Assembly (NCBI GenBank): GCA_903843045.1
Contig: CAIMOJ010000046.1
Span: 95,073-159,072 of the forward strand
Direction: 5' to 3'
DNA: 64,000 nucleotides
From: Candidatus Uhrbacteria bacterium
GTDB taxonomy: Bacteria > Patescibacteriota > Patescibacteriia > UBA9934 > GWF2-40-263
The notes below the pieces were generated by a model. The model worked only from the letters and a program-made list of their open reading frames with translations, ran no database searches and was not told where the DNA came from. Every line of letters begins with the position of its first letter. The stretch's first letter is position 1. This document shows positions 10,337 through 52,373 of the stretch, one piece after another. Made by a program: the position numbers and the translations under genes.

Positions 10337-11692
10337 TTAGTCGACGAGCCTCCGCGCAACCTCGTCGATGTCCCCCGCCCCCTGGACGATGACGACGTCG
10401 CCGTCGCGGACGATCTCTCGCAACGCAGCCTCCGCCTCGTCGAGCCCCGCCGCATACTCGACTCTTCGACTCTTCGACCCTTCGACCCTTCGCACCTCCT
10501 CAACGAGATCCTCGCTCGACACCGCCTCGCTCTCCGTCCGCCCCGCGACGCCATAGATCTCGGCGACGACGATCTCATCCGCGAGGGCGATCGACGCGAC
10601 GAACTCGTCGAACAGCTCGTGGGTTCGGGAGTGCTGGTGCGGCTGGAAGCAGAGGACGATGCGGCGGCCCGGGAAGAACTCGCGGGCGGCTTCGATCGTT
10701 CCCTTGATGGCCGTTGGATGGTGGCCGTAGTCGGAGACAACCTCCGCGCCGTTAAATTGTCCGACGCGCTCGAAGCGACGCCAGATTCCGGTGAAGGACG
10801 AAAGGACGCGCGCGCAGGTTTCGAACGGGACGCCGAGTTCCATGGCGGCGGACGTGGCGGCGAGCGCGTTCATCGCGTTGAACGCTCCGGGGATCTTGAG
10901 TTTCAGCGTCCCTTGGCTCGTCTCGACGGTCTGGATTCCGTCGACGGTCATTCGTGACAGACGTTCGTAGTCCGACGCCCCGTCGAACCCGTACGTCACC
11001 CCGCGGTCGACGATGAGACGATTCGACTGCGCGTCGTCCTTGTTCCACACGGTCAGCCCCTTTCCCTTCAGCTTGTCCACGAACGTCTGGAACGTCTCGC
11101 GAATGTGGTCGACGTCGCGATAAAAGTCGAGATGGTCCGCCTCGATATTCGTGAGCACGATCATCTCCGGGTTGATCTCCAGCATGTTGGCGCGGTACTC
11201 GCACGCCTCGACGACGAAGAAGCGCCCGTTGCCGACGCGGAGGTTGCCAAGCGGAAACGACGGCACGAGCGAGCCGACGATGACCGTCGGATCGTATCCG
11301 GCGGCCTCGAGCATGAGGGCGAGCATCGCGGTGGTCGTCGACTTCCCGTTCGTCCCAGAAACCGCGATCGTGGAATACCCCTTGGACATCGCGCCCAAAA
11401 ACTGCGGGTACGATAATTCCTTCGCCCCGAGCTCGCGGGCACGGACGCGCTCGACGTTCGATTCGACGACCGCCGGGCTATACACGACCAACTGGACCCC
11501 GACCGGCACGTTCGTCGCGTCATGCCCGATCGCGATCGCCACCCCGCGACGCTCAAGATCGTCCGTGATCGCCGACCCCGCCCGATCCGACCCGCTGACT
11601 TTTTTCCCTTTCGCCAAACACCACTTCGCCGCCGCCGAAACCCCAATCCCCCCAACGCCAACGAAATGAATTGTTTCAATTCCCTCAAGCAT
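10337..11692 (-). CDS. murC: UDP-N-acetylmuramate--L-alanine ligase MurC
   Basis: 451 aa with Mur ligase N/M/C domains (GVGGIGVS, GTNGKSTTTAM). Contains an internal GGTCGAAGG tandem repeat encoding RRVEGSKSRRVE. Confidence 0.92.
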   Translation of the reverse strand: MLEGIETIHFVGVGGIGVSAAAKWCLAKGKKVSGSDRAGSAITDDLERRGVAIAIGHDATNVPVGVQLVVYSPAVVESNVERVRARELGAKELSYPQFLGAMSKGYSTIAVSGTNGKSTTTAMLALMLEAAGYDPTVIVGSLVPSFPLGNLRVGNGRFFVVEACEYRANMLEINPEMIVLTNIEADHLDFYRDVDHIRETFQTFVDKLKGKGLTVWNKDDAQSNRLIVDRGVTYGFDGASDYERLSRMTVDGIQTVETSQGTLKLKIPGAFNAMNALAATSAAMELGVPFETCARVLSSFTGIWRRFERVGQFNGAEVVSDYGHHPTAIKGTIEAAREFFPGRRIVLCFQPHQHSRTHELFDEFVASIALADEIVVAEIYGVAGRTESEAVSSEDLVEEVRRVEGSKSRRVEYAAGLDEAEAALREIVRDGDVVIVQGAGDIDEVARRLVD

Positions 11693-16170: not shown

Positions 16171-17037
16171 ATGCTCCACCTCCTCGACGGACGTGCGATC
16201 GGCGCGCGGATCCGTGAAAAAGTGAAGGCGCGCGTCGCGGCAATGGCGGTTTCTCCCGGCCTTGCCGTAATTTTGGTCGGGGACGATCCGGCGTCGCACC
16301 TGTACGACGCGCTTAAGAAAAAAGCTTGCGAGGAGGCCGGGATCCGCTTTGAGCTATTTTTGTACCCAAACGACGAGCCCGAGCAATCGCTGATCGCGAA
16401 GATCGAGGAGCTCAACGCGCGCCACGACGTAACGGGGATCCTGGTCCAGCTCCCCCTCCCGACCCAAAACGCCGACCGTGTCATCGCCGCGATCCGACCG
16501 GATAAGGACGTCGACGGGTTCCATCAGGAAAATCTAAAGGCGCTCCGGGAAGGTCGCCCCGGAATCGTCTCCGCGCTGGCACTCGGCATCATGAAACTCG
16601 TCGACGAGGCAAAGCGAGTTTCCCCTCCTCATAGGGAGGAGGGGTCAGGGGTGGTCGTCGCGCCTCGCGTCGCCATCGTCGGAAGCAACCTCTTCGCCGA
16701 GCCCCTCCGCCACCTCTTCGCGGAACAGCACGCCGACGTCGAGCGCGTCGACCCGAAGGACGACGATCTCGCCGCCAAAACAAAAACCGCGGACGTACTC
16801 GTCGTCGCGGTCGGAAAGCCCGGACTTATCGTCGGTTCGATGGTAAAACCTGGCGCGACCGTCATCGACGTCGGAACGACACGCATGGGAAAACGCATCG
16901 TCGGCGACGTGGACGCCGAGTCCGTCTCATCCGTCGCCGGCGCGCTCAGTCCGGTTCCGGGCGGAGCCGGACCAATGACCGTCGCGATGCTGACGCTGAA
17001 CGTCCTCAAGGCCGCCGAGCTACAAAAAAATCCCTGA
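16171..17037 (+). CDS. folD: Bifunctional methylenetetrahydrofolate dehydrogenase/cyclohydrolase FolD
   Basis: 288 aa FolD with an extra surface-loop peptide VSPPHREEGSGVVV encoded by the palindromic mini-element at 16618-16664. Confidence 0.92.
   Translation: MLHLLDGRAIGARIREKVKARVAAMAVSPGLAVILVGDDPASHLYDALKKKACEEAGIRFELFLYPNDEPEQSLIAKIEELNARHDVTGILVQLPLPTQNADRVIAAIRPDKDVDGFHQENLKALREGRPGIVSALALGIMKLVDEAKRVSPPHREEGSGVVVAPRVAIVGSNLFAEPLRHLFAEQHADVERVDPKDDDLAAKTKTADVLVVAVGKPGLIVGSMVKPGATVIDVGTTRMGKRIVGDVDAESVSSVAGALSPVPGGAGPMTVAMLTLNVLKAAELQKNP
16618..16664 (+). repeat. Intragenic palindromic mini-element, type I, copy 1 (in folD)
   Basis: GTTTCCCCTCCTCATAGGGAGGAGGGGTCAGGGGTGGTCGTCGCGC, with a 9-10-bp perfect hairpin CCCCTCCTC/GAGGAGGGG. 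About 45 of 47 nt identical to the copy at 23036-23083. Confidence 0.8.
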
Positions 17038-22587: not shown

Positions 22588-23100
22588 TTACGGGAGATTG
22601 ATGTCAAGCGATTGGCCTGGTTTCAGGTCATGTTTCAGAGCAAACCCGGCGTTTACCTCCAAAACCTGGTTTATATCGCCGTTTGGCCGAACGCTTGGCG
22701 GATTCATGTCCGTCGAAACAGGCATGGACGGCTCGATTCCGACGACGATCCCGTCGCGCAGCCAGACGATGTCGATCGGAAACTTCATGTCCTTCATCCA
22801 AAACGCCGGGCGGGACAGGCCGTCGAGCATGAACAGCATCCCGCGGTCCGGGTCAAGAAAGATGTGGTCGGAAAGGCCGACGCGCCGTTCCTCGGGAGAA
22901 TCAGCGATTTCGACGGAGACGACGGTTCCGTCGGGGAAATGAACGGTCGGATGCGGGGATTTGAAGCGAATGAACAAGATGGCAATCGCGAGGACGAGGA
23001 AAACGGCGATAGCGACGACTGTCGCAGCTCGACGTTGCGCGACGACCACCCCTACCCCCTCCTCCCTATGAGGAGGGGAAACGATGTTATCGCGGATCAT
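22588..23100 (-). CDS. DUF192 (COG1430) family protein with N-terminal anchor
   Basis: 170 aa with the DUF192 signature FWMKDMKFPIDIVWL. The N-terminus carries the VSPPHREEGVGVVV peptide from mini-element copy 2. Confidence 0.7.
   Translation of the reverse strand: MIRDNIVSPPHREEGVGVVVAQRRAATVVAIAVFLVLAIAILFIRFKSPHPTVHFPDGTVVSVEIADSPEERRVGLSDHIFLDPDRGMLFMLDGLSRPAFWMKDMKFPIDIVWLRDGIVVGIEPSMPVSTDMNPPSVRPNGDINQVLEVNAGFALKHDLKPGQSLDINLP
23036..23083 (-). repeat. Intragenic palindromic mini-element, type I, copy 2 (in the DUF192 gene)
   Basis: The reverse complement reads GTTTCCCCTCCTCATAGGGAGGAGGGGGTAGGGGTGGTCGTCGCGC. Same orientation relative to the coding strand and same frame as copy 1. Confidence 0.8.
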
Positions 23101-27785: not shown

Positions 27786-28901
27786 TTAGGCGCTTTTTTC
27801 TTTTCTCAGTTCCTCCATCAGCCTCAGGTAAAACCGCAGGTTGTGGATCGTCGCCAGCCGCATGGCCAGCATCTCGCCGACCGAGAACAGGTGTCGGAGA
27901 TACGCCCGCGAGACGGTCTTGCACGTCGAGCAGTCGCACCACGCGTCCACCGGCGACTCGTCGAACGTACTGGCCTCGCCGGTCACGTTGAGCTTCTTGT
28001 AGAAATCGGTGGGCCGCTTCGAGAAGTCGATCGTCGTCGGATCCTGAGCCCAGGTGAACAGCGTGCCGTGCCGCGCGTTTCGCGTCGGGATCACGCAGTC
28101 GAACATGTCCACGCCGAGCGAGACGTAATGCACGATCTCCTCCGGCATCCCCCCGCCCATGAAATACCGCGGCTTGTCCGCCGGCATCTTGTCGCAGATG
28201 AACTCCGCGATCCGATACGCGTCCTCCCGCTTCTCCCCGACGGACAGTCCGCCGATCGCATACCCGTCGAACCCGATCTCGACGAGCCCCTCGACCGACT
28301 TCTCGCGAAGGTCCTCGTGCGTCCCGCCCTGGACGATCCCGAACAGATTCTGTCCTGGCGGCAGCGCATCCTTGCACCGCCTCGCCCATCGCAGCGACAG
28401 CTCCATCGCCTGCTCGTACCGCTCGCGCGTCGAGTCGCCGGCCGCGACGTCGTCGAACTGCATCACGATGTCGGACCCGATCGCCGCCTGCATCTGCATC
28501 GACAACTCCGGAGTCAAATGGATCCGCTTCCCATCGATGTGCGACTGGAACGTCACGCCATCCTCGTTCGTCTTGTTCATCTTCGACAGGCTGAAGACCT
28601 GATAGCCACCTGAGTCCGTGATGATCGGCTTGTTCCAACCCATCAGGTGATGGAGACCTCCAAGTTTCTCCATTCCCTCCAACCCCGGACGCAGCAACAG
28701 ATGATACGTGTTCGACAAAACGATCGACGCGCCAAGCGCTTCGACATCCGCCGACGACAGCGTCTTCACCGCCCCCTTGGTCGCGATCGGCATAAAGCAG
28801 GGCGTCTCGACGATTCCATGTGGAAGGGTCAGGCGTCCGCGTCGGGATTTTCCGTTGGTTGAGAGAAGTTCGAACACAGAGAATTTCAAATTGATCAACA
28901 T
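27786..28901 (-). CDS. tgt: Queuine tRNA-ribosyltransferase (tRNA-guanine transglycosylase)
   Basis: 371 aa with the TGT signature (RRGRLTLPHG...ETPCFMP) and zinc site CDCSTC...H. Confidence 0.92.
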   Translation of the reverse strand: MLINLKFSVFELLSTNGKSRRGRLTLPHGIVETPCFMPIATKGAVKTLSSADVEALGASIVLSNTYHLLLRPGLEGMEKLGGLHHLMGWNKPIITDSGGYQVFSLSKMNKTNEDGVTFQSHIDGKRIHLTPELSMQMQAAIGSDIVMQFDDVAAGDSTRERYEQAMELSLRWARRCKDALPPGQNLFGIVQGGTHEDLREKSVEGLVEIGFDGYAIGGLSVGEKREDAYRIAEFICDKMPADKPRYFMGGGMPEEIVHYVSLGVDMFDCVIPTRNARHGTLFTWAQDPTTIDFSKRPTDFYKKLNVTGEASTFDESPVDAWCDCSTCKTVSRAYLRHLFSVGEMLAMRLATIHNLRFYLRLMEELRKEKSA

Positions 28902-28968
28902 ACCTCACGGCTGCAAGGTAAGTTGAACTGTCCAACATACCTTGCAGCCGTGAGGTATGTTGGACAGT
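28889..28968 (-). promoter_or_regulatory. Mutually exclusive hairpins sequestering the tgt SD/AUG (dnaJ-tgt junction)
   Basis: Perfect 25-bp inverted repeat CAACATACCTCACGGCTGCAAGGTA (28896-28920) / TACCTTGCAGCCGTGAGGTATGTTG (28938-28962). In the minus-strand transcript this puts the tgt AUG and the GAGG inside the 3' arm. An alternative 16-bp hairpin AACTGTCCAACATACC/GGTATGTTGGACAGTT uses the 5' arm. Confidence 0.5.
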
Positions 28969-30045
28969 TTACTGTAGCAGGTGGAGCTCTTCCAGCAGCT
29001 TCCGCTGCTCCTTCGACAACTTCGTGGGCGTCACGACTTGAACAATGAACACGTGATCGCCACGACCGTTTCCTGCCGGGACGCCTTTGCCGCGGACACG
29101 GATTTCCGTTCCCGACTGTGTGCCGGGTTCAATCTCGAGTTTCCACTTTCCGTCGATGATCTCCGTATCCACCGTCGCGCCGAGCGCGGCCTGCGTGAAG
29201 CCGAGATTGAGCGACGAGTAAATCGTCGAACCCTCGCGCTCGAAGCGCGTGTCGTTCTTCACGTGGAGACGGACGAACAGGTCGCCCGTTTGTCCCCCGC
29301 GGATCGCCTCGCCGCCGCCGCGAACGCGGAGGGTGTTGCCGTTCTCGACGCCGGACGGGATATGGACCGTCAGCGTCTTTTTTCCGCGGACGATCCCATC
29401 GCCGTGGCACGCCTTGCAGTTCGTCGACGGAACCTTTCCCTCGCCGCGGCACGTTCCGCACGCGACCTTGGACTGGAACGTTCCAAGAATCGTGCGCTGC
29501 TGGACCACCTTCACGCCCTTTCCGCCGCAGTCGTCGCAGTCCCTCATCTTCGTCCCCGGCTCGGCTCCCTTGCCGTCGCATTTCTCGCACGCGTCGAACT
29601 TCGACAGGTGCAATTCCTTGTCGACGCCAAAGATTGAATCCTTGAACGTAAGCTCGGCATCGACCTGGATGTCGTTCCCCCGCGGCGCGGCATGACGACC
29701 TCCTCCCCCGCCGAACATGTTCCCGAACATCTCGCCCAAATCCTCGAACCCACCGCCGCCCTGGAACCCAGAGAAATCAAACCCTCCAAACCCCTGGCCA
29801 CCGCCGAATCCCTGCCCCCCTCCCGGGCTTCCATCAAACGCGGCCGACCCGAACTGGTCGTACTTCTTGCGCTTCTCCGCGTCGCCCACCACCTGGTACG
29901 CCTCGTTGATCTCCTTGAACTTCGCCTCGTCCCCCGTCGGCTTGTCGGGATGATACTGGTGCGCCAGCTTCCGGAACGCAGCCTTAATCTCATCCTGCGA
30001 CGCGGACTTGGAGACGCCGAGCAAATTGTAGAAATCTTTGGCCAT
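28969..30045 (-). CDS. dnaJ: Chaperone DnaJ
   Basis: 358 aa with the J domain (HPD), G/F-rich region and four CxxCxGxG zinc repeats. Confidence 0.95.
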   Translation of the reverse strand: MAKDFYNLLGVSKSASQDEIKAAFRKLAHQYHPDKPTGDEAKFKEINEAYQVVGDAEKRKKYDQFGSAAFDGSPGGGQGFGGGQGFGGFDFSGFQGGGGFEDLGEMFGNMFGGGGGRHAAPRGNDIQVDAELTFKDSIFGVDKELHLSKFDACEKCDGKGAEPGTKMRDCDDCGGKGVKVVQQRTILGTFQSKVACGTCRGEGKVPSTNCKACHGDGIVRGKKTLTVHIPSGVENGNTLRVRGGGEAIRGGQTGDLFVRLHVKNDTRFEREGSTIYSSLNLGFTQAALGATVDTEIIDGKWKLEIEPGTQSGTEIRVRGKGVPAGNGRGDHVFIVQVVTPTKLSKEQRKLLEELHLLQ

Positions 30046-36113: not shown

Positions 36114-36782
36114 ATGTTCACAGGAATCGTAAAAGGACTCGGAACGGTCGTCTCGGGCCACGCGCGGCCGGGACTCGTCAGCTTCACCGTCGAAATGCCC
36201 GCGGGATACGCGGACGGCTTACAAATCGGCGCGTCCGTCGCCATCGACGGGGTTTGCCTGACCGTCACCGACATGTACCCCTCTCCTTCACAAGGAGAGG
36301 GACAGGGTGAGGTCATCGCCTCGGCGTCCTTCGACGCGATGCAGGAAACGCTCGAACGAACGACCATCGGCGCGCTCGTCGAAGGTTCTCGCGTCAACGT
36401 CGAGCGATCCTATCGCGTCGGCGACGAGGTCGGCGGACACATCGTCTCCGGCCACGTCACCGGAACGGCCGATATCGTCGCGATCGACGCGCCGGAAAAC
36501 AACCACGTCATCACCTTCCGCGTCCCGCCGGAATGGATGAAGTACATCCTCCCCAAAGGATTCGTCGCCCTCGACGGATGCTCGCTCACCATCGTCGACG
36601 TCAACCGAACCGATTCGACCTTCACCGTCTGGCTCATCCCCGAGACGCTCCGAATGACAACCTTCGGCTTCAAGAAACCAGGCGACAAAGTAAACCTCGA
36701 GATCGATTCGAAGACCCAAACCATCGTCGACACCGTAGAATCTTTCCTATCCGTACATCCCCAGATCCGTAATTCGTACTAA
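36114..36782 (+). CDS. ribE: Riboflavin synthase alpha subunit
   Basis: Start at MFTGIVKGLG. Two lumazine-binding repeats. Carries the extra peptide YPSPSQGEGQGEV encoded by mini-element copy 3. Confidence 0.9.
   Translation: MFTGIVKGLGTVVSGHARPGLVSFTVEMPAGYADGLQIGASVAIDGVCLTVTDMYPSPSQGEGQGEVIASASFDAMQETLERTTIGALVEGSRVNVERSYRVGDEVGGHIVSGHVTGTADIVAIDAPENNHVITFRVPPEWMKYILPKGFVALDGCSLTIVDVNRTDSTFTVWLIPETLRMTTFGFKKPGDKVNLEIDSKTQTIVDTVESFLSVHPQIRNSY
36278..36314 (+). repeat. Intragenic palindromic mini-element, type II, copy 3 (in ribE)
   Basis: CCCCTCTCCTTCACAAGGAGAGGGACAGGGTGAGGTC with a 10-bp hairpin CCCTCTCCTT/AAGGAGAGGG. 36 of 37 nt identical to the copy at 51840-51876. Confidence 0.8.
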
Positions 36783-45524: not shown

Positions 45525-45544
45525 AGGGTTATGGGGTCCGGAGG

Positions 45545-45592
45545 GTCGAAGGTTCGAAGAGCCGCGGTTCTTCGAACCTTCGACCCTATCCT
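45545..45592. repeat. GGTCGAAGG-family palindrome (18-bp stem hairpin) between ftsI and murF
   Basis: GGGTCGAAGGTTCGAAGAGCCGCGGTTCTTCGAACCTTCGACCC. The same core motif occurs at 10452-10500 and 26718-26760. Confidence 0.5.
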
Positions 45593-49228: not shown

Positions 49229-50644
49229 ATGGCGACATCCCACGCGGACCACGAGGTCTGGCAGAAAGAGCAGAATTTCATCTCGCAAAAGCGCAAGGAG
49301 AACCGAGAGCTGTTCGCGTCGTCGGACAAGGGCGCGTTCGATCTGTATGATCGAATCGGCATCACGTCGCATCCGCCGCAGCTGCCGAAGGGGTACGTGA
49401 AATATTCGCCGCTCGACTTCATCGTCGAGGAAATCCGTCCGGACGGAACGCTCATGACCGTCGACGGCCAGCCCGCCGTGCCGGAGACGCCCGACGGCGA
49501 GGGGACGATTTACGCGGATCTCACCAAGCTTGGCATCTCGACGCTCGACGCGGTCCAGCGCATGACCGACGTGCTTGGGGTTCCCCAGGACAAGATCGGC
49601 TACGCGGGAATCAAGGACGCGGTCGCGCTTACGGCGCAGCGAATCAGCGTCCGCGGAGGGTCGCTTGAGGCCGTGAAGAATCTCGCGATCACCGGCTGCC
49701 AGTTTCGACAGGTGGTCGACGGCAAGGGCGTGATCTCGACCGGCAACCTGAAGGGGAATCGGTTCACCCTTCTCATCCGCACGGAAGGCGAGCCCGACAA
49801 GGAGGCGTTCGCCGCGGCGATCGAGCTGGTGAAGACGCGGGGCGTGATGAACTACTACGGCACGCAGCGCTTCGGCACGCCGCGGTTTCTCGCCCACCTG
49901 TTCGGCGCGCACATCATGCGCGGCGACCTCGAATCGCTCATCAAGGCGTACCTCATGCAGCCGAGCCCGTACGAGCTCCCGTTCTACGCCAACATCCGGG
50001 CCGAGGCGGCCGCGGCGTATGGCGACTTTGCAAAGATGCAGACGATCATGGGAGTGCTCCCCTACTCGTTCCGCTACGAGCTCCAGATGCTCGAGGAGCT
50101 CGTCAAGAACCCGACGGGCTTCGAGGCGGCCATGAACCGCACGCAAAAGCAGGCGGACCTCTGGGCCCGCGCCTACGCCAGCTATCTCACCAACCTCATC
50201 CTCGCCGACGCGGAAAAAAACGGAACCAAGCTCCCGGACCGCATCCCGCTCCTCATCACGCAGGAACCGGAGGCGAAGCAGTTTTACGCGTCGTGGCTCA
50301 AACAGCACGGAACGGAGAGGTACATGGAGAACCTGAGAAAGTACCGGTTCATCAACGTGGGAAAGAACCAGACCATCGAGCCCGTCATCCGCCCGACGGT
50401 CCATGATTACAAGTTCGTCCCCGAGGGAATCGTCATCTCGTTCGACCTTCCGAAGGGCGCCTACGCGACAACGATCCTGATGTACCTGTTCGACTCCGTC
50501 AGCGGAACGCCGATTCCGGAATGGATGAACACGGCCGAGGTCGACACCAAGGAACTCCTCGGCACCGGCTCGCTCCGCCACGTCCGCGAACAATTTGCCG
50601 GGGAGATCGTTTCGGCGATGGCGAACAAGACGGACGACGAGTAG
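49229..50644 (+). CDS. truD: tRNA pseudouridine(13) synthase TruD
   Basis: 471 aa with catalytic-Asp motif GIKDAVALTAQRIS and NYYGTQRFG. Extended -10 TGgTAGAAT upstream. Confidence 0.88.
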   Translation: MATSHADHEVWQKEQNFISQKRKENRELFASSDKGAFDLYDRIGITSHPPQLPKGYVKYSPLDFIVEEIRPDGTLMTVDGQPAVPETPDGEGTIYADLTKLGISTLDAVQRMTDVLGVPQDKIGYAGIKDAVALTAQRISVRGGSLEAVKNLAITGCQFRQVVDGKGVISTGNLKGNRFTLLIRTEGEPDKEAFAAAIELVKTRGVMNYYGTQRFGTPRFLAHLFGAHIMRGDLESLIKAYLMQPSPYELPFYANIRAEAAAAYGDFAKMQTIMGVLPYSFRYELQMLEELVKNPTGFEAAMNRTQKQADLWARAYASYLTNLILADAEKNGTKLPDRIPLLITQEPEAKQFYASWLKQHGTERYMENLRKYRFINVGKNQTIEPVIRPTVHDYKFVPEGIVISFDLPKGAYATTILMYLFDSVSGTPIPEWMNTAEVDTKELLGTGSLRHVREQFAGEIVSAMANKTDDE

Positions 50645-51529: not shown

Positions 51530-52066
51530 TTATCTCACGTATAAATAGAGCTTTGCCGCCCCAGGCATCTCGTCGACTTTCGTGGGATTCCAATCCGGAA
51601 TTGGCCAGACGAACGAGACGAGTCGCGCTCCCGGTTTCAGTTCCGCTTCCAGTTTTGGGCGGATTTTTTCGTAGGTTTCAGGGAGAAGAAAGAGATATAC
51701 CGCGTCGGCGTCGCGAAGGTCGTAGGCGAACGCGTTGCCAAGGACGAAGCGGGTGTTCCAGGAACGCGTGATGATTCGACGGATCTGCGCGGCGATCCAC
51801 TGGATAATCGAGAGCTCGACGCCGACGGCGATGATCTTAGACCTCACCCTGTCCCTCTCCTTTTGAAGGAGAGGGGAGCTTAGAGCGAGGACGACCCTTC
51901 CGTCCCCGCAGCCGAGCTCGACGAATTTCTCCCCGTCCTTCAAATCCAACAGCCGTCGAATGCGCTCGATGTCCCGCTTGAACGTGGGAACCCAGGGCGC
52001 GCCCGAGGCGGAGGCGTAGGCGAGGGAAAAGAGGAGAATGAGGATTGGGATCCAGAGGAGGGACAT
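51530..52066 (-). CDS. Membrane-anchored class I SAM-dependent methyltransferase
   Basis: N-terminal TM, SAM motif I VELGCGDGRVV. Contains the extra peptide SSPLLQKERDRVRS encoded by mini-element copy 4. Paralog of the 59870-60412 gene. Confidence 0.7.
   Translation of the reverse strand: MSLLWIPILILLFSLAYASASGAPWVPTFKRDIERIRRLLDLKDGEKFVELGCGDGRVVLALSSPLLQKERDRVRSKIIAVGVELSIIQWIAAQIRRIITRSWNTRFVLGNAFAYDLRDADAVYLFLLPETYEKIRPKLEAELKPGARLVSFVWPIPDWNPTKVDEMPGAAKLYLYVR
51840..51876 (-). repeat. Intragenic palindromic mini-element, type II, copy 4 (in the methyltransferase gene)
   Basis: The reverse complement reads CCCCTCTCCTTCAAAAGGAGAGGGACAGGGTGAGGTC. It is translated in a different frame from copy 3. 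Confidence 0.8.
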
Positions 52067-52146: not shown

Positions 52147-52281
52147 CGGGCTGTGGCGCAGATGGTAGCGCGCTTCGCGAGGGAGTGCAGGCGCAGAGAG
52201 GAGCCAACTGCTTGGCTCCGAACCGCCGGAACGGGCATGGCGTTATGCATCAGCATAGCCATGCACGGAAGAGGCCGTGGG
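52147..52281 (+). pseudogene. Scrambled partial tRNA-Pro copy (5' half 31 nt + 87-nt unrelated insert + 15-nt 3' fragment)
   Basis: 52147-52177 CGGGCTGTGGCGCAGATGGTAGCGCGCTTCG is identical to nt 1-31 of the intact tRNA-Pro. 52267-52281 GGAAGAGGCCGTGGG matches its anticodon-stem 3' side through the T-stem 5' side. The intervening 87 nt (52178-52264) contain the local hairpins GGAGCC...GGCTCC and GCATGGC...GCCATGC. No T-loop or acceptor 3' strand is present. Confidence 0.5.
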
Positions 52282-52297
52282 GGAAAATCGAATTAGT

Positions 52298-52373
52298 CGG
52301 GCTGTGGCGCAGATGGTAGCGCGCTTCGTTCGGGACGAAGAGGCCGTGGGTTCAAATCCCGCCAGCCCGACCA
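52298..52373 (+). tRNA. tRNA-Pro (anticodon CGG)
   Basis: Acceptor CGGGCTG/CAGCCCG, D-stem GCGC/GCGC, anticodon stem CTTCG/CGAAG with loop TTCGGGA, T-arm GTGGG-TTCAAAT-CCCGC, discriminator A, CCA encoded. Confidence 0.85.

What the first reader, a model, noticed from the sequence alone, without database searches (positions are those of the whole stretch)
36278..36314. The same mini-element is translated in two different reading frames (ribE versus methyltransferase)
The ribE copy (CCCCTCTCCTTCACAAGGAGAGGGACAGGGTGAGGTC) and the reverse complement of the methyltransferase copy (CCCCTCTCCTTCAAAAGGAGAGGGACAGGGTGAGGTC) differ at a single nucleotide. They are read as ccc-tct-cct-tca (PSPSQGEGQGEV) in ribE and as tcc-cct-ctc-ctt (SPLLQKERDRVRS) in the methyltransferase. 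Identical DNA in different frames means selection acts on the nucleotide element (hairpin) rather than on the encoded peptide. That is strong evidence for a selfish or RNA-structural element and not a protein motif.
Basis: seen in the sequence. Interest (0 to 1): 0.7.

Follow-up and report, generated by a model that had tools for sequence, protein, structure and literature searches.

The report
Triplex-type DNA repeat inside genes
A 36-base self-folding DNA repeat of a kind known from E. coli, where it has only been reported between genes, sits in-frame inside four housekeeping genes of this candidate-phylum bacterium and is read in different frames, so it is DNA-level baggage and not a protein motif.

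Summary
The 37-mer occurs at 36278-36314 (+) in ribE and at 51840-51876 (-) in a methyltransferase. The copies differ by one loop base, both lie on the sense strand, and their reading frames are one base apart.

The element is more than a hairpin. It is a 36-nt unit with a 10-3-10-3-10 layout: pyrimidine arm, loop, purine arm, loop, then a G-rich mirror copy of the purine arm. That is the architecture of the BoxC/PIT/TMECO "potential intrastrand triplex" repeats (Holder 2015).

A second subfamily sits in FolD and in a DUF192 gene. All four copies in the window are intragenic.

Close orthologues of ribE, the methyltransferase and FolD have the site empty, or filled by another variant, at other insertion points and in other phases. 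Between orthologous copies the 33 non-loop bases are identical, while the surrounding gene DNA is about 80% identical.

In other phyla about 20% of copies lie in-frame in confirmed conserved genes, and all four stop-free frames are used.

The RNA-structure alternative is not supported. How the element spreads is unknown.

I rate it a new variant of a known kind, of moderate interest.

The parts
36279..36314 (+). Element A, copy 1, a 36-nt unit inside ribE. Pyrimidine arm 36279-36288 (CCCTCTCCTT), loop 36289-36291 (CAC), purine arm 36292-36301 (AAGGAGAGGG), loop 36302-36304 (ACA), mirror third strand 36305-36314 (GGGTGAGGTC). Translated as PSPSQGEGQGEV.
   Evidence: Predicted hairpin: RNA -22.6 kcal/mol (z -3.0), DNA -12.8 kcal/mol (z -3.7).
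51840..51875 (-). Element A, copy 2, inside the methyltransferase-like gene. Same 10-3-10-3-10 unit with loop CAA. Translated as (S)PLLQKERDRVR(S), one base out of phase with copy 1.
16622..16657 (+). Element B, copy 1, inside folD: CCCCTCCTCA-tag-GGAGGAGGGG-tca-GGGGTGGTCG. The repeat shared with copy 2 extends over 16618-16663. Translated as (V)SPPHREEGSGVV(VA).
   Evidence: (pair I1).
23043..23078 (-). Element B, copy 2, at codons 7-20 of the DUF192 ORF. The shared repeat covers 23037-23082. It is in the same frame as copy 1 (VSPPHREEGVGVVVA). If the true start is the GTG inside the tail, the copy would lie just upstream of the coding sequence.
36114..36782 (+). Host gene ribE (riboflavin synthase, two Lum_binding domains). 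The insert lies in the turn between two beta strands of the N-terminal barrel.
   Evidence: Pfam. Alignment to PDB 1i8d shows +12 residues. In the AlphaFold2 model the insert is a coil between strands 47-56 and 69-76 with lowered confidence.
51530..52066 (-). Host gene, a class I SAM-dependent methyltransferase-like protein. The insert lies between the GCGDG motif and the VGVELS strand.
   Evidence: Homologues and their Pfam domains. Alignment. This protein itself has no Pfam hit.
16171..17037 (+). Host gene folD (methylene-THF dehydrogenase/cyclohydrolase). The insert lies just before the Rossmann strand.
   Evidence: Pfam. Alignment to PDB 6v6y shows +10 residues. Orthologue alignment.
22588..23100 (-). 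Host gene for a DUF192 protein. Its ATG overlaps the stop codon of the upstream glycosyltransferase gene.

Best explanation
**What it is.** The two sequences are copies of a short, structure-defined DNA repeat. The unit is 36 nt, laid out 10-3-10-3-10: a pyrimidine arm, a loop, the complementary purine arm, a loop, and a G-rich third segment that mirrors the purine arm (G opposite G, and T or A opposite A). This is the architecture of the BoxC / PIT / TMECO "potential intrastrand triplex" repeats, described in E. coli and other bacteria.

**Where it sits.** The genome is probably Candidatus Uhrbacteria (Patescibacteria). In it, two subfamilies, A and B, have entered protein-coding genes.

**Why it is tolerated.** The unit is a multiple of three bases long. 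Its pyrimidine and purine tracts encode Pro/Ser/Leu followed by Gly/Glu/Arg in every stop-free frame. A copy that lands in a surface loop therefore only adds about 11-12 flexible residues, and the gene survives. The frame depends on where the copy landed.

**What is shown:**
- the architecture;
- the insertion relative to orthologues;
- several phases and several insertion points;
- nucleotide-level conservation;
- distribution across many phyla.

**What is inferred:**
- that copies spread by some copy-and-insert or conversion process acting on DNA;
- that the folded single strand (hairpin or triplex) is the recognised or causal intermediate;
- that the inserts are translated.

The enzyme or repair pathway responsible is unknown.
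For: **Architecture**
- A scanner that needs only a hairpin plus a mirror third strand finds exactly 4 elements in the window, against 0.05 expected in shuffles. All four are 10-3-10-3-10 with 9/10 allowed triads.
- In 137 distinct elements from viral contigs, position 8 of the third strand is T when the purine arm has A (12/13). It is G when the arm has G (108/108). Fisher p is about 1e-15.
- The A, B and C variants show the same shift of non-G positions in all three strands.

**Known class**
- Holder 2015 gives the pattern CCCTCNCCC-N3-6-GGGNGAGGG-N3-GGGNGAGGG, with triplex formation in vitro on single strands.

**Insertion relative to orthologues**
- ribE carries exactly +12 codons compared with orthologues of 76-83% identity whose site is empty.
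- The insertion falls after codon 3 (window), codon 4 (L004, variant C, other phase) or codon 5 (L005) of a 7-codon turn.
- The methyltransferase site is empty in L247, carries A in the window and in L246, and carries a B-type in another phase in L248.
- The FolD site carries B in the window, A in L369, and is empty in L370 and others.
- The DUF192 copy is absent from both relatives.

**Nucleotide-level constraint**
- 33/33 non-loop bases are identical between orthologous copies, against 80-81% identity in the flanking gene. P is about 7e-4 and 9e-4.

**Generality**
- Near-identical cores are found in more than 120 stretches in each of three collections. The genome scan spans Armatimonadota, Bacteroidota, Gammaproteobacteria and many Patescibacteria.
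- 23 of 112 non-redundant copies in low-GC loci are in-frame in long ORFs, using all four stop-free frames.
- 10 of 10 tested host ORFs are conserved proteins.

**Tolerance**
- The ribE insert is a lower-confidence coil between two strands in an otherwise confident model.
Against: - No transposase, terminal inverted repeats or target-site duplication were found, so mobility is inferred only from distribution.
- The same loops are occupied in several lineages. This could mean one old insertion per site followed by conversion and deletion, and not repeated insertion.
- Insert sizes are not always 36 nt relative to empty alleles. They are +11 codons in FolD and the methyltransferase, and +14 in L248. 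In the ribonucleotide reductase of L246 the element replaces a linker and does not add cleanly.
- Triplex formation was not detected in vivo in E. coli (Holder 2015). It cannot be tested here.
- Element A misses the strict TMECO pattern by one triad.
- Only four copies are available from the source genome.
- Translation of the inserts is inferred from preserved frames and is not observed.
Confidence: 0.78

Rival explanations
1. It is an mRNA-level structural or regulatory element. The hairpin in the coding region would be kept because it pauses ribosomes, directs RNase cleavage or tunes expression.
For: - Stable predicted RNA hairpins: -19 to -27 kcal/mol, z -1.8 to -3.2.
- All four window copies, and most inserts seen at the ribE, methyltransferase and FolD sites in relatives, lie with the C-rich arm first on the sense strand.
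- There is a weak resemblance to the Rfam Whalefall-1 RNA motif.
Against: - The covarying third strand obeys the purine-motif triplex code, which according to the work cited in Holder 2015 does not form in RNA.
- In the wider sample about 80% of copies are outside long ORFs. The intragenic ones are 12 sense and 11 antisense.
- One relative carries an antisense copy inside ribonucleotide reductase.
- Host genes are functionally unrelated.
- PIT elements showed no promoter or terminator activity in E. coli.
- The Whalefall-1 score of 17 bits is far below the gathering score of 37.
Confidence: 0.1
2. Each occupied site reflects one ancient insertion, and there is no ongoing mobility. Later differences would come from gene conversion between dispersed copies (concerted evolution) and from deletions provoked by the structure.
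For: - The same three loops are occupied in several related genomes.
- The filled FolD alleles carrying A and B have identical total length, 19 codons, and a similar CGCGCC flank.
- The methyltransferase copy is at the same position in the window and in L246.
- TMECO sites in E. coli are prone to deletion and mutation.
- Conversion would also explain 33/33 identity.
Against: - There are three different insertion points within 7 codons of ribE, each with exactly +12 codons.
- The DUF192 and ribonucleotide reductase copies are each present in only one of three syntenic genomes.
- The ribE and methyltransferase copies within one genome differ by a single loop base although their host sites differ in age: the ribE site is empty in the relative that has the methyltransferase copy.
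Confidence: 0.3
3. The conserved feature is a G-quadruplex/hairpin switch and not a triplex, as proposed for the E. coli motif by Kaplan et al. 2016.
For: - The purine arm plus the third strand supply several G-runs.
- The common form elsewhere, GGGAGGGG-NNN-GGGGTGGG, fits a canonical four-tract quadruplex motif.
- CD evidence for the E. coli motif is cited.
Against: - Element A has only two GGG runs and two GG runs.
- Covariation of the non-G positions between arm and tail is predicted by mirror (triplex) pairing and not by a quadruplex.
Confidence: 0.1
4. It is a selected protein motif (a flexible loop), or an artefact of assembly or duplication.
For: The peptides are loop-like and sit in surface loops.
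Against: - Two frames give unrelated peptides from the same DNA.
- Four frames are used elsewhere.
- Close orthologues function without the insert.
- The identical ribE protein is on record in 32 blocks of the assembly collection, with 18 contigs read.
- The flanks of the two copies are unrelated.
Confidence: 0.02

Closest known systems
BoxC / PIT / TMECO intrastrand triplex motifs (Bachellier 1990s; Hoyne & Maher 2000, 2002; Holder et al. 2015, PMC4666352)
   Same: - The layout is the same: C-rich arm, loop, G-rich arm, 3-nt loop, G-rich mirror arm.
- The length is about 36-37 nt.
- The core is almost the same. E. coli has GGGAGAGGG-TTA-GGGTGAGGG; here it is AGGAGAGGG-ACA-GGGTGAGGT.
- It is a dispersed multicopy repeat, with loop positions more variable than stems.
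- Elsewhere it occurs as inverted doublets.
- No transposase is associated.
   Different: - In E. coli both studies found every copy between genes. Here all four copies are inside ORFs and in-frame.
- The strict TMECO pattern is missed at the outermost triad, with the change present in all three strands.
- The hosts are Patescibacteria and other phyla, whereas the TMECO census covered proteobacteria.
Rickettsia palindromic elements (RPE; Ogata et al. 2000, as summarised in PMC1779305 and PMC10969869)
   Same: - Palindromic repeats are inserted in-frame into unrelated housekeeping genes.
- They are tolerated as extra surface segments.
- They are also present between genes.
- They are interpreted as selfish DNA in a small genome.
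   Different: - RPEs are 100-150 bp, encode a conserved peptide, and are confined to Rickettsia.
- The element here is 36 nt, has a triplex-type third strand, is read in several frames, and occurs across many phyla.
- No sequence similarity is expected, and none was tested.
REP / REPIN elements mobilised by RAYT transposases (Bertels & Rainey 2011, PMC3116915)
   Same: - They are short GC-rich hairpin repeats found as singletons and as inverted doublets. The doublet form of this element is seen in a high-GC metagenome organism.
- Spread is inferred to go through single-stranded folded DNA.
   Different: - REPs are extragenic and have a conserved GTAG-type 5' tetranucleotide and a linked RAYT gene.
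- Neither feature was seen here. The RAYT gene was not searched for.
Rfam RF01762 Whalefall-1 RNA motif
   Same: It shares CUCUCCUU..GGAGAG and the tail AGGGUGAGGAC.
   Different: The family model has a further 24 positions between hairpin and tail. The score is 17.2 bits against a gathering score of 37, so this element is not a member.

Membership tests
Class II (purine-motif) potential intrastrand triplex motif, ITxF criteria of Holder 2015 | Three consecutive blocks with stems of 6-15 nt, at most one mismatched triplet, and loops of 1-6 nt. The third block must mirror the purine arm with G.G:C, A.A:T or T.A:T triads. | tested here: met
   A and B have 10-nt stems, 3-nt loops and 9/10 allowed triads. 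C has 8/9. Criteria taken.
TMECO, strict pattern | 5'-CCCTCNCCC N3-6 GGGNGAGGG N3 GGGNGAGGG-3' | tested here: not met
   A reads CCCTCTCCT / AGGAGAGGG / GGGTGAGGT. The outermost triad is T-A-T where the pattern requires C-G-G. B and C differ further.
TMECO / BoxC | Intergenic location (reported as always intergenic in E. coli). | tested here: not met
   All 4 window copies lie inside ORFs. The E. coli statements are.
TMECO / BoxC | Forms a stable intramolecular triplex as single-stranded DNA in vitro. | not testable with these tools
   Only hairpin energies can be computed. Mirror-strand covariation is indirect support.
Rickettsia palindromic elements | A 100-150 bp palindromic repeat of defined RPE families that encodes a conserved peptide in one frame. 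| tested here: not met
   The unit is 36 nt and is read in at least 2 frames here and 4 frames elsewhere. RPE definition.
Rickettsia palindromic elements | In-frame insertion into unrelated conserved genes, with orthologues that lack the insert. | tested here: met
REP / REPIN-RAYT | A linked RAYT (Y1 transposase) gene in the genome. | not tested
   The window ORFs were not screened family by family, and the rest of the genome is not available.
REP / REPIN-RAYT | Inverted doublets of the repeat. | tested here: inconclusive
   There are none in the window. Doublets with a hairpin spacer occur in a high-GC metagenome organism and in viral contigs.
MITE | Terminal inverted repeats and target-site duplications flanking the element. 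| tested here: not met
   The insert consists of the folded unit alone. No consistent direct repeat was seen at the filled versus empty sites that were compared.
Rfam RF01762 Whalefall-1 | Covariance-model score at or above the gathering threshold of 37 bits. | tested here: not met
   The score is 17.2 bits, and 24 model positions are missing.
G-quadruplex/hairpin switch (Kaplan 2016) | Four G-tracts of at least three G with short loops. | tested here: not met
   A has tracts GG, GGG, GGG, GG. B has GGG, GG, GGGG, GGGG, GG, which is borderline.

The most novel reading that the evidence does not exclude
Triplex-type 36-nt repeats would be an ancient, pan-bacterial class of structure-defined mobile DNA. 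They would spread without a dedicated element-encoded transposase, through a folded single-strand intermediate handled by replication or repair. Because they are 12 codons long and encode loop-like peptides in every open frame, they would act in some candidate-phylum lineages as a recurrent source of new surface loops in essential proteins, repeatedly hitting the same permissive turns.
Probability: 0.25. Interest if true: 0.75.

Novelty: new variant of a known kind. Interest (0 to 1): 0.55.

Why it matters
BoxC/PIT/TMECO repeats have been known for about 30 years, yet they have no established function or mode of spread. In E. coli they have been reported only between genes.

Finding them in-frame in ribE, folD, a methyltransferase and other essential genes supplies natural filled and empty alleles. 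Those alleles have several insertion points and phases. With them the element's boundaries, its gain and loss, and the constraint on all three strands can be measured directly.

The result also explains a class of odd Pro/Ser...Gly/Glu/Arg insertions in proteins from candidate-phylum genomes. Such insertions could otherwise be read as lineage-specific protein features, or could degrade domain detection; the methyltransferase here no longer hits any Pfam model.

Tried and rejected
- **Genome scan mis-specified.** My genome contigs pattern had a 4-nt first loop. The window copies have 3 nt (noticed).
- **Metagenome scan saturated.** It was dominated by a roughly 70% GC organism in which ORF-based calls are unreliable, so I restricted the coding statistics to loci below 55% GC.
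- **First attempts at scanning and aligning.** A first regular expression for the element missed copies. The plain MAFFT alignment of variants was not structure-aware. I replaced both with a purpose-written hairpin-plus-mirror scanner. That scanner misses copies whose stem extends by an extra pair, as in L005.
- **Rfam.** There is no family at gathering score on the window or on 10 viral loci. The only sub-threshold match is Whalefall-1.
- **Literature.** A search for BoxC was swamped by unrelated "BoxCar" papers. No paper on in-frame palindromic repeats in Patescibacteria was found in the searchable library.
- **Target-site duplication.** CTAAG flanks the methyltransferase copy on both sides, but the implied length is not a multiple of three and the other sites show nothing similar, so I rejected it.
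- **Organism name.** Assignment to Uhrbacteria rests on named homologues of 67-81% identity.

Full report
**1. Observation**

The 37-mer CCCCTCTCCTTCACAAGGAGAGGGACAGGGTGAGGTC is at 36278-36314 (+). Its only other match within 3 mismatches is at 51840-51876 (-). The single difference is C versus A in the hairpin loop. Dinucleotide-preserving shuffles give no matches.

The first copy lies in an ORF of 222 aa starting at the ATG at 36114. This ORF is a riboflavin synthase with two Lum_binding domains. The second copy lies in a 178-aa ORF on the minus strand. Its homologues are class I SAM-dependent methyltransferases.

Codon by codon, ribE reads CCC TCT CCT TCA CAA GGA GAG GGA CAG GGT GAG GTC, which is PSPSQGEGQGEV. 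The methyltransferase reads TCC CCT CTC CTT CAA AAG GAG AGG GAC AGG GTG AGG TCT, which is SPLLQKERDRVRS.

Both copies are on the sense strand, one base out of phase with each other, and their flanks are unrelated. The identical ribE protein including the insert is on record in 32 blocks of the assembly collection, with 18 contigs read.

**2. Anatomy**

Folding predicts a 10-bp stem with a 3-nt loop:
- RNA: -22.6 kcal/mol, z -3.0.
- DNA: -12.8 kcal/mol, z -3.7.

The 3' tail is not a loose end. GGGTGAGGTC is the mirror image of the purine arm AAGGAGAGGG, with G opposite G and T or A opposite A. The unit is therefore 10-3-10-3-10, or 36 nt, at 36279-36314.

A repeat search found a second subfamily, B, with the same layout: CCCCTCCTCA-tag-GGAGGAGGGG-tca-GGGGTGGTCG. 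One copy is at 16622-16657 (+) in folD. The other is at 23043-23078 (-), at the 5' end of a DUF192 gene.

I wrote a scanner that asks only for a pyrimidine/purine hairpin followed by a mirror strand. It finds exactly these four elements in the window, where shuffles give 0.05. Each has 9 of 10 permitted triads.

**3. The third strand is constrained**

The non-G positions move together in all three strands across variants A, B and C. C is found in a relative's ribE.

I tested this in 137 distinct elements recovered from viral contigs with a loose pattern. The eighth base of the purine arm and the eighth base of the tail covary:
- A with T in 12 of 13 cases.
- G with G in 108 of 108 cases.
- Fisher p is about 1e-15.

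The copies are not independent, so the p-value overstates the case, but the rule is clear. T opposite an A:T pair is a reverse-Hoogsteen triad. It is not a Watson-Crick alternative pairing, and a quadruplex does not require it.

**4. What is already known**

A full-text search with the E. coli version of the core that I recalled returned Holder et al. 2015 (PMC4666352) and Kaplan et al. 2016 (PMC5100583).

Holder et al. describe the 37-nt TMECO motif, earlier called BoxC and PIT.
- Its pattern is CCCTCNCCC-N3-6-GGGNGAGGG-N3-GGGNGAGGG.
- They found it 3610 times in 262 proteobacterial genomes.
- It forms a class II purine-motif triplex as a single strand in vitro, but this was not detected in vivo.
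- It is associated with local sequence instability and has no linked transposase.
- In E. coli K-12 it is "always located intergenically".

Kaplan et al. likewise found all copies flanking ORFs and none within. Holder et al. also cite work showing that purine-motif triplexes do not form in RNA.

Element A differs from the strict TMECO pattern only at the outermost triad, and the change is present in all three strands. Rfam has no family for the element. The best sub-threshold match is Whalefall-1, at 17 bits against a gathering score of 37. It shares the hairpin and the tail but has 24 extra positions between them.

**5. The elements are insertions, and the sites are dynamic**

*ribE.* Orthologues of 76-83% identity have the turn empty (..DIDRDKVSFD..). 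Others carry exactly 12 extra codons. At the DNA level the 36-nt unit sits at three different points in a 7-codon turn:
- after codon 3 in the window;
- after codon 5 in L005, which has the same A variant;
- after about codon 4 in L004, which has variant C in a different phase.

*Methyltransferase.* The site is empty in L247 and in several other homologues. It carries A at the same position in the window and in L246. It carries a B-type element in yet another phase in L248. Other homologues have further triplex-like inserts at this loop.

*FolD.* The window has B. L369, from the same genome as L004, has A in the PSPSKGEGQGEV phase. L370 and several homologues of 83-85% identity are empty.

*DUF192 and ribonucleotide reductase.* The DUF192 copy is absent from both syntenic relatives. 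One relative has an antisense A-type copy in a linker of ribonucleotide reductase, where the window has an unrelated linker.

*Comparison with solved structures.* ribE has +12 residues relative to 1i8d, and FolD has +10 relative to 6v6y. An AlphaFold2 model of ribE has mean pLDDT 84.9. It places the insert as a lower-confidence coil between strands 47-56 and 69-76.

**6. Nucleotide-level conservation**

Between the window and L246 (methyltransferase), and between the window and L005 (ribE), the 33 non-loop bases of the element are identical. The rest of each gene is 80-81% identical, and 64-65% at third codon positions. The only differences in the element lie in loop 1. At the flanking rate, the chance of no change in 33 bases is about 7e-4 and 9e-4. 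This indicates selection on the nucleotides, conversion between copies, or recent re-insertion. All three are DNA-level processes.

**7. Wider distribution**

The genome hits include Capsulimonadaceae and other Armatimonadota, Bacteroidota, Acinetobacter and other Gammaproteobacteria, Elusimicrobia, and many Patescibacteria.

Among 112 non-redundant copies in loci below 55% GC:
- 23 (about 20%) lie well inside long ORFs.
- 12 of these are sense and 11 antisense.
- All four stop-free frames are used: PSPLQGEGQGEV, SPLLxKERDRVR, PHPxPLLxKERG and TSPCPSPxEGEG.
- Ten of ten host ORFs tested are conserved proteins: M16 peptidase, GMP synthase, UvrC, MnmA, a Mur ligase, two radical SAM enzymes, MgsA, an ATP-grasp/NUDIX protein and ValRS.

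In most lineages the element is therefore depleted from genes but not excluded. In the window's lineage 5 of 6 copies found without reference to a filled homologue are intragenic. That is close to what random landing in a gene-dense genome would give. The numbers are small.

**8. Mechanism**

*Shown.* The element is a structure-defined repeat whose three strands covary. It is inserted relative to orthologues, at several points and in several phases. Its non-loop sequence is conserved beyond the host gene.

*Inferred.*
- It spreads or is homogenised at the DNA level.
- The folded single strand is the relevant form.
- Inserts are translated, because the frame is preserved through all four copies found by DNA search alone.
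- Tolerance follows from the length of 12 codons and from pyrimidine/purine tracts that encode Pro/Ser/Leu followed by Gly/Glu/Arg.

*Unknown.* The agent of spread is not identified. No terminal repeats or target duplications were seen. Some filled alleles differ from empty ones by 33 or 42 nt and not by 36, and one copy replaces a linker. These features would fit repair-associated or template-switch events as well as transposition.

In a high-GC metagenome organism the element occurs as inverted doublets with a hairpin spacer, which resembles REPINs.

The main open alternative for the dynamics is one old insertion per site followed by conversion and deletion. The equal length of the A- and B-filled FolD alleles favours that view. 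The three ribE insertion points and the lineage-specific DUF192 and reductase copies argue against it.

**9. Verdict**

The element belongs functionally and architecturally with the BoxC/PIT/TMECO triplex-type repeats, although it fails the strict TMECO pattern and the intergenic criterion.

The closest behavioural analogue is the Rickettsia palindromic element, which is much longer and is read in one frame. I found no description of in-frame triplex-type repeats in candidate-phylum genomes in the searchable library. That is absence of evidence only.

I rate it a new variant of a known kind, of moderate interest.

Noticed in passing
window 52148-52290, next to tRNA-Pro at 52298-52373 (+): About 31 nt of the 5' half of tRNA-Pro (..TCGGGCTGTGGCGCAGATGGTAGCGCGCTTC..) is repeated about 150 nt upstream of the intact gene, together with a fragment resembling its T-arm. 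This may be a decayed second copy or an integration scar.
   Followed up: partly
window 49858-49952 (-): ARAGORN calls a 95-nt tRNA-Ile(GAT) with the anticodon at position 38. Rfam's tRNA model does not report it at gathering score. It may be a tRNA with an insertion or intron, or a false call.
   Followed up: no
window 10467-10496 and 45535-45580: A second repeat family built from CGAAGGGTCGAAG-like units. It forms a tandem run at 10467 and a near-perfect hairpin at 45535-45580. The same kind of peptide (..EGRRESKS..) appears as an insert at the methyltransferase loop in homologues P0124, P0128 and P0135.
   Followed up: partly
window 28888-28970: A long palindrome with 41-nt arms, 88% complementary, separated by 1 nt, and relatively AT-rich (pair I2).
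   Followed up: no
L252-L304 and other Ga018222x/Ga018223x metagenome contigs: In an organism of about 70% GC the same core occurs as inverted doublets: forward element, then a tgtgacc..ggtcaca hairpin spacer, then the reverse element. The flanks are conserved, which is REPIN-like.
   Followed up: partly
L309 8-154 and L240 1674-1830: Tandem arrays of the element: four copies at 42-nt spacing inside an ORF (..KERGTQPHPVPLLV.. repeated), and three copies at 60-nt spacing in a Moranbacteria contig.
   Followed up: no
window 36277-36314 versus Rfam RF01762: The Whalefall-1 "RNA motif" consensus shares the hairpin CUCUCCUU..GGAGAG and the tail AGGGUGAGGAC with this element. This raises the possibility that the family is a triplex-type DNA repeat carrying an extra hairpin.
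   Followed up: partly
L369 17302-17787 (DUF192 orthologue): Where the window has element B, the N-terminus of this relative's DUF192 protein carries a different simple repeat, (GGTCAAA)n, encoding GQRSNVKGQRG.
   Followed up: no
window 51530-52066 (-): The methyltransferase-like protein gives no Pfam hit at E<=0.001, although shorter homologues without the insert hit Methyltransf_25 and related models. The insert may depress domain detection.
   Followed up: partly
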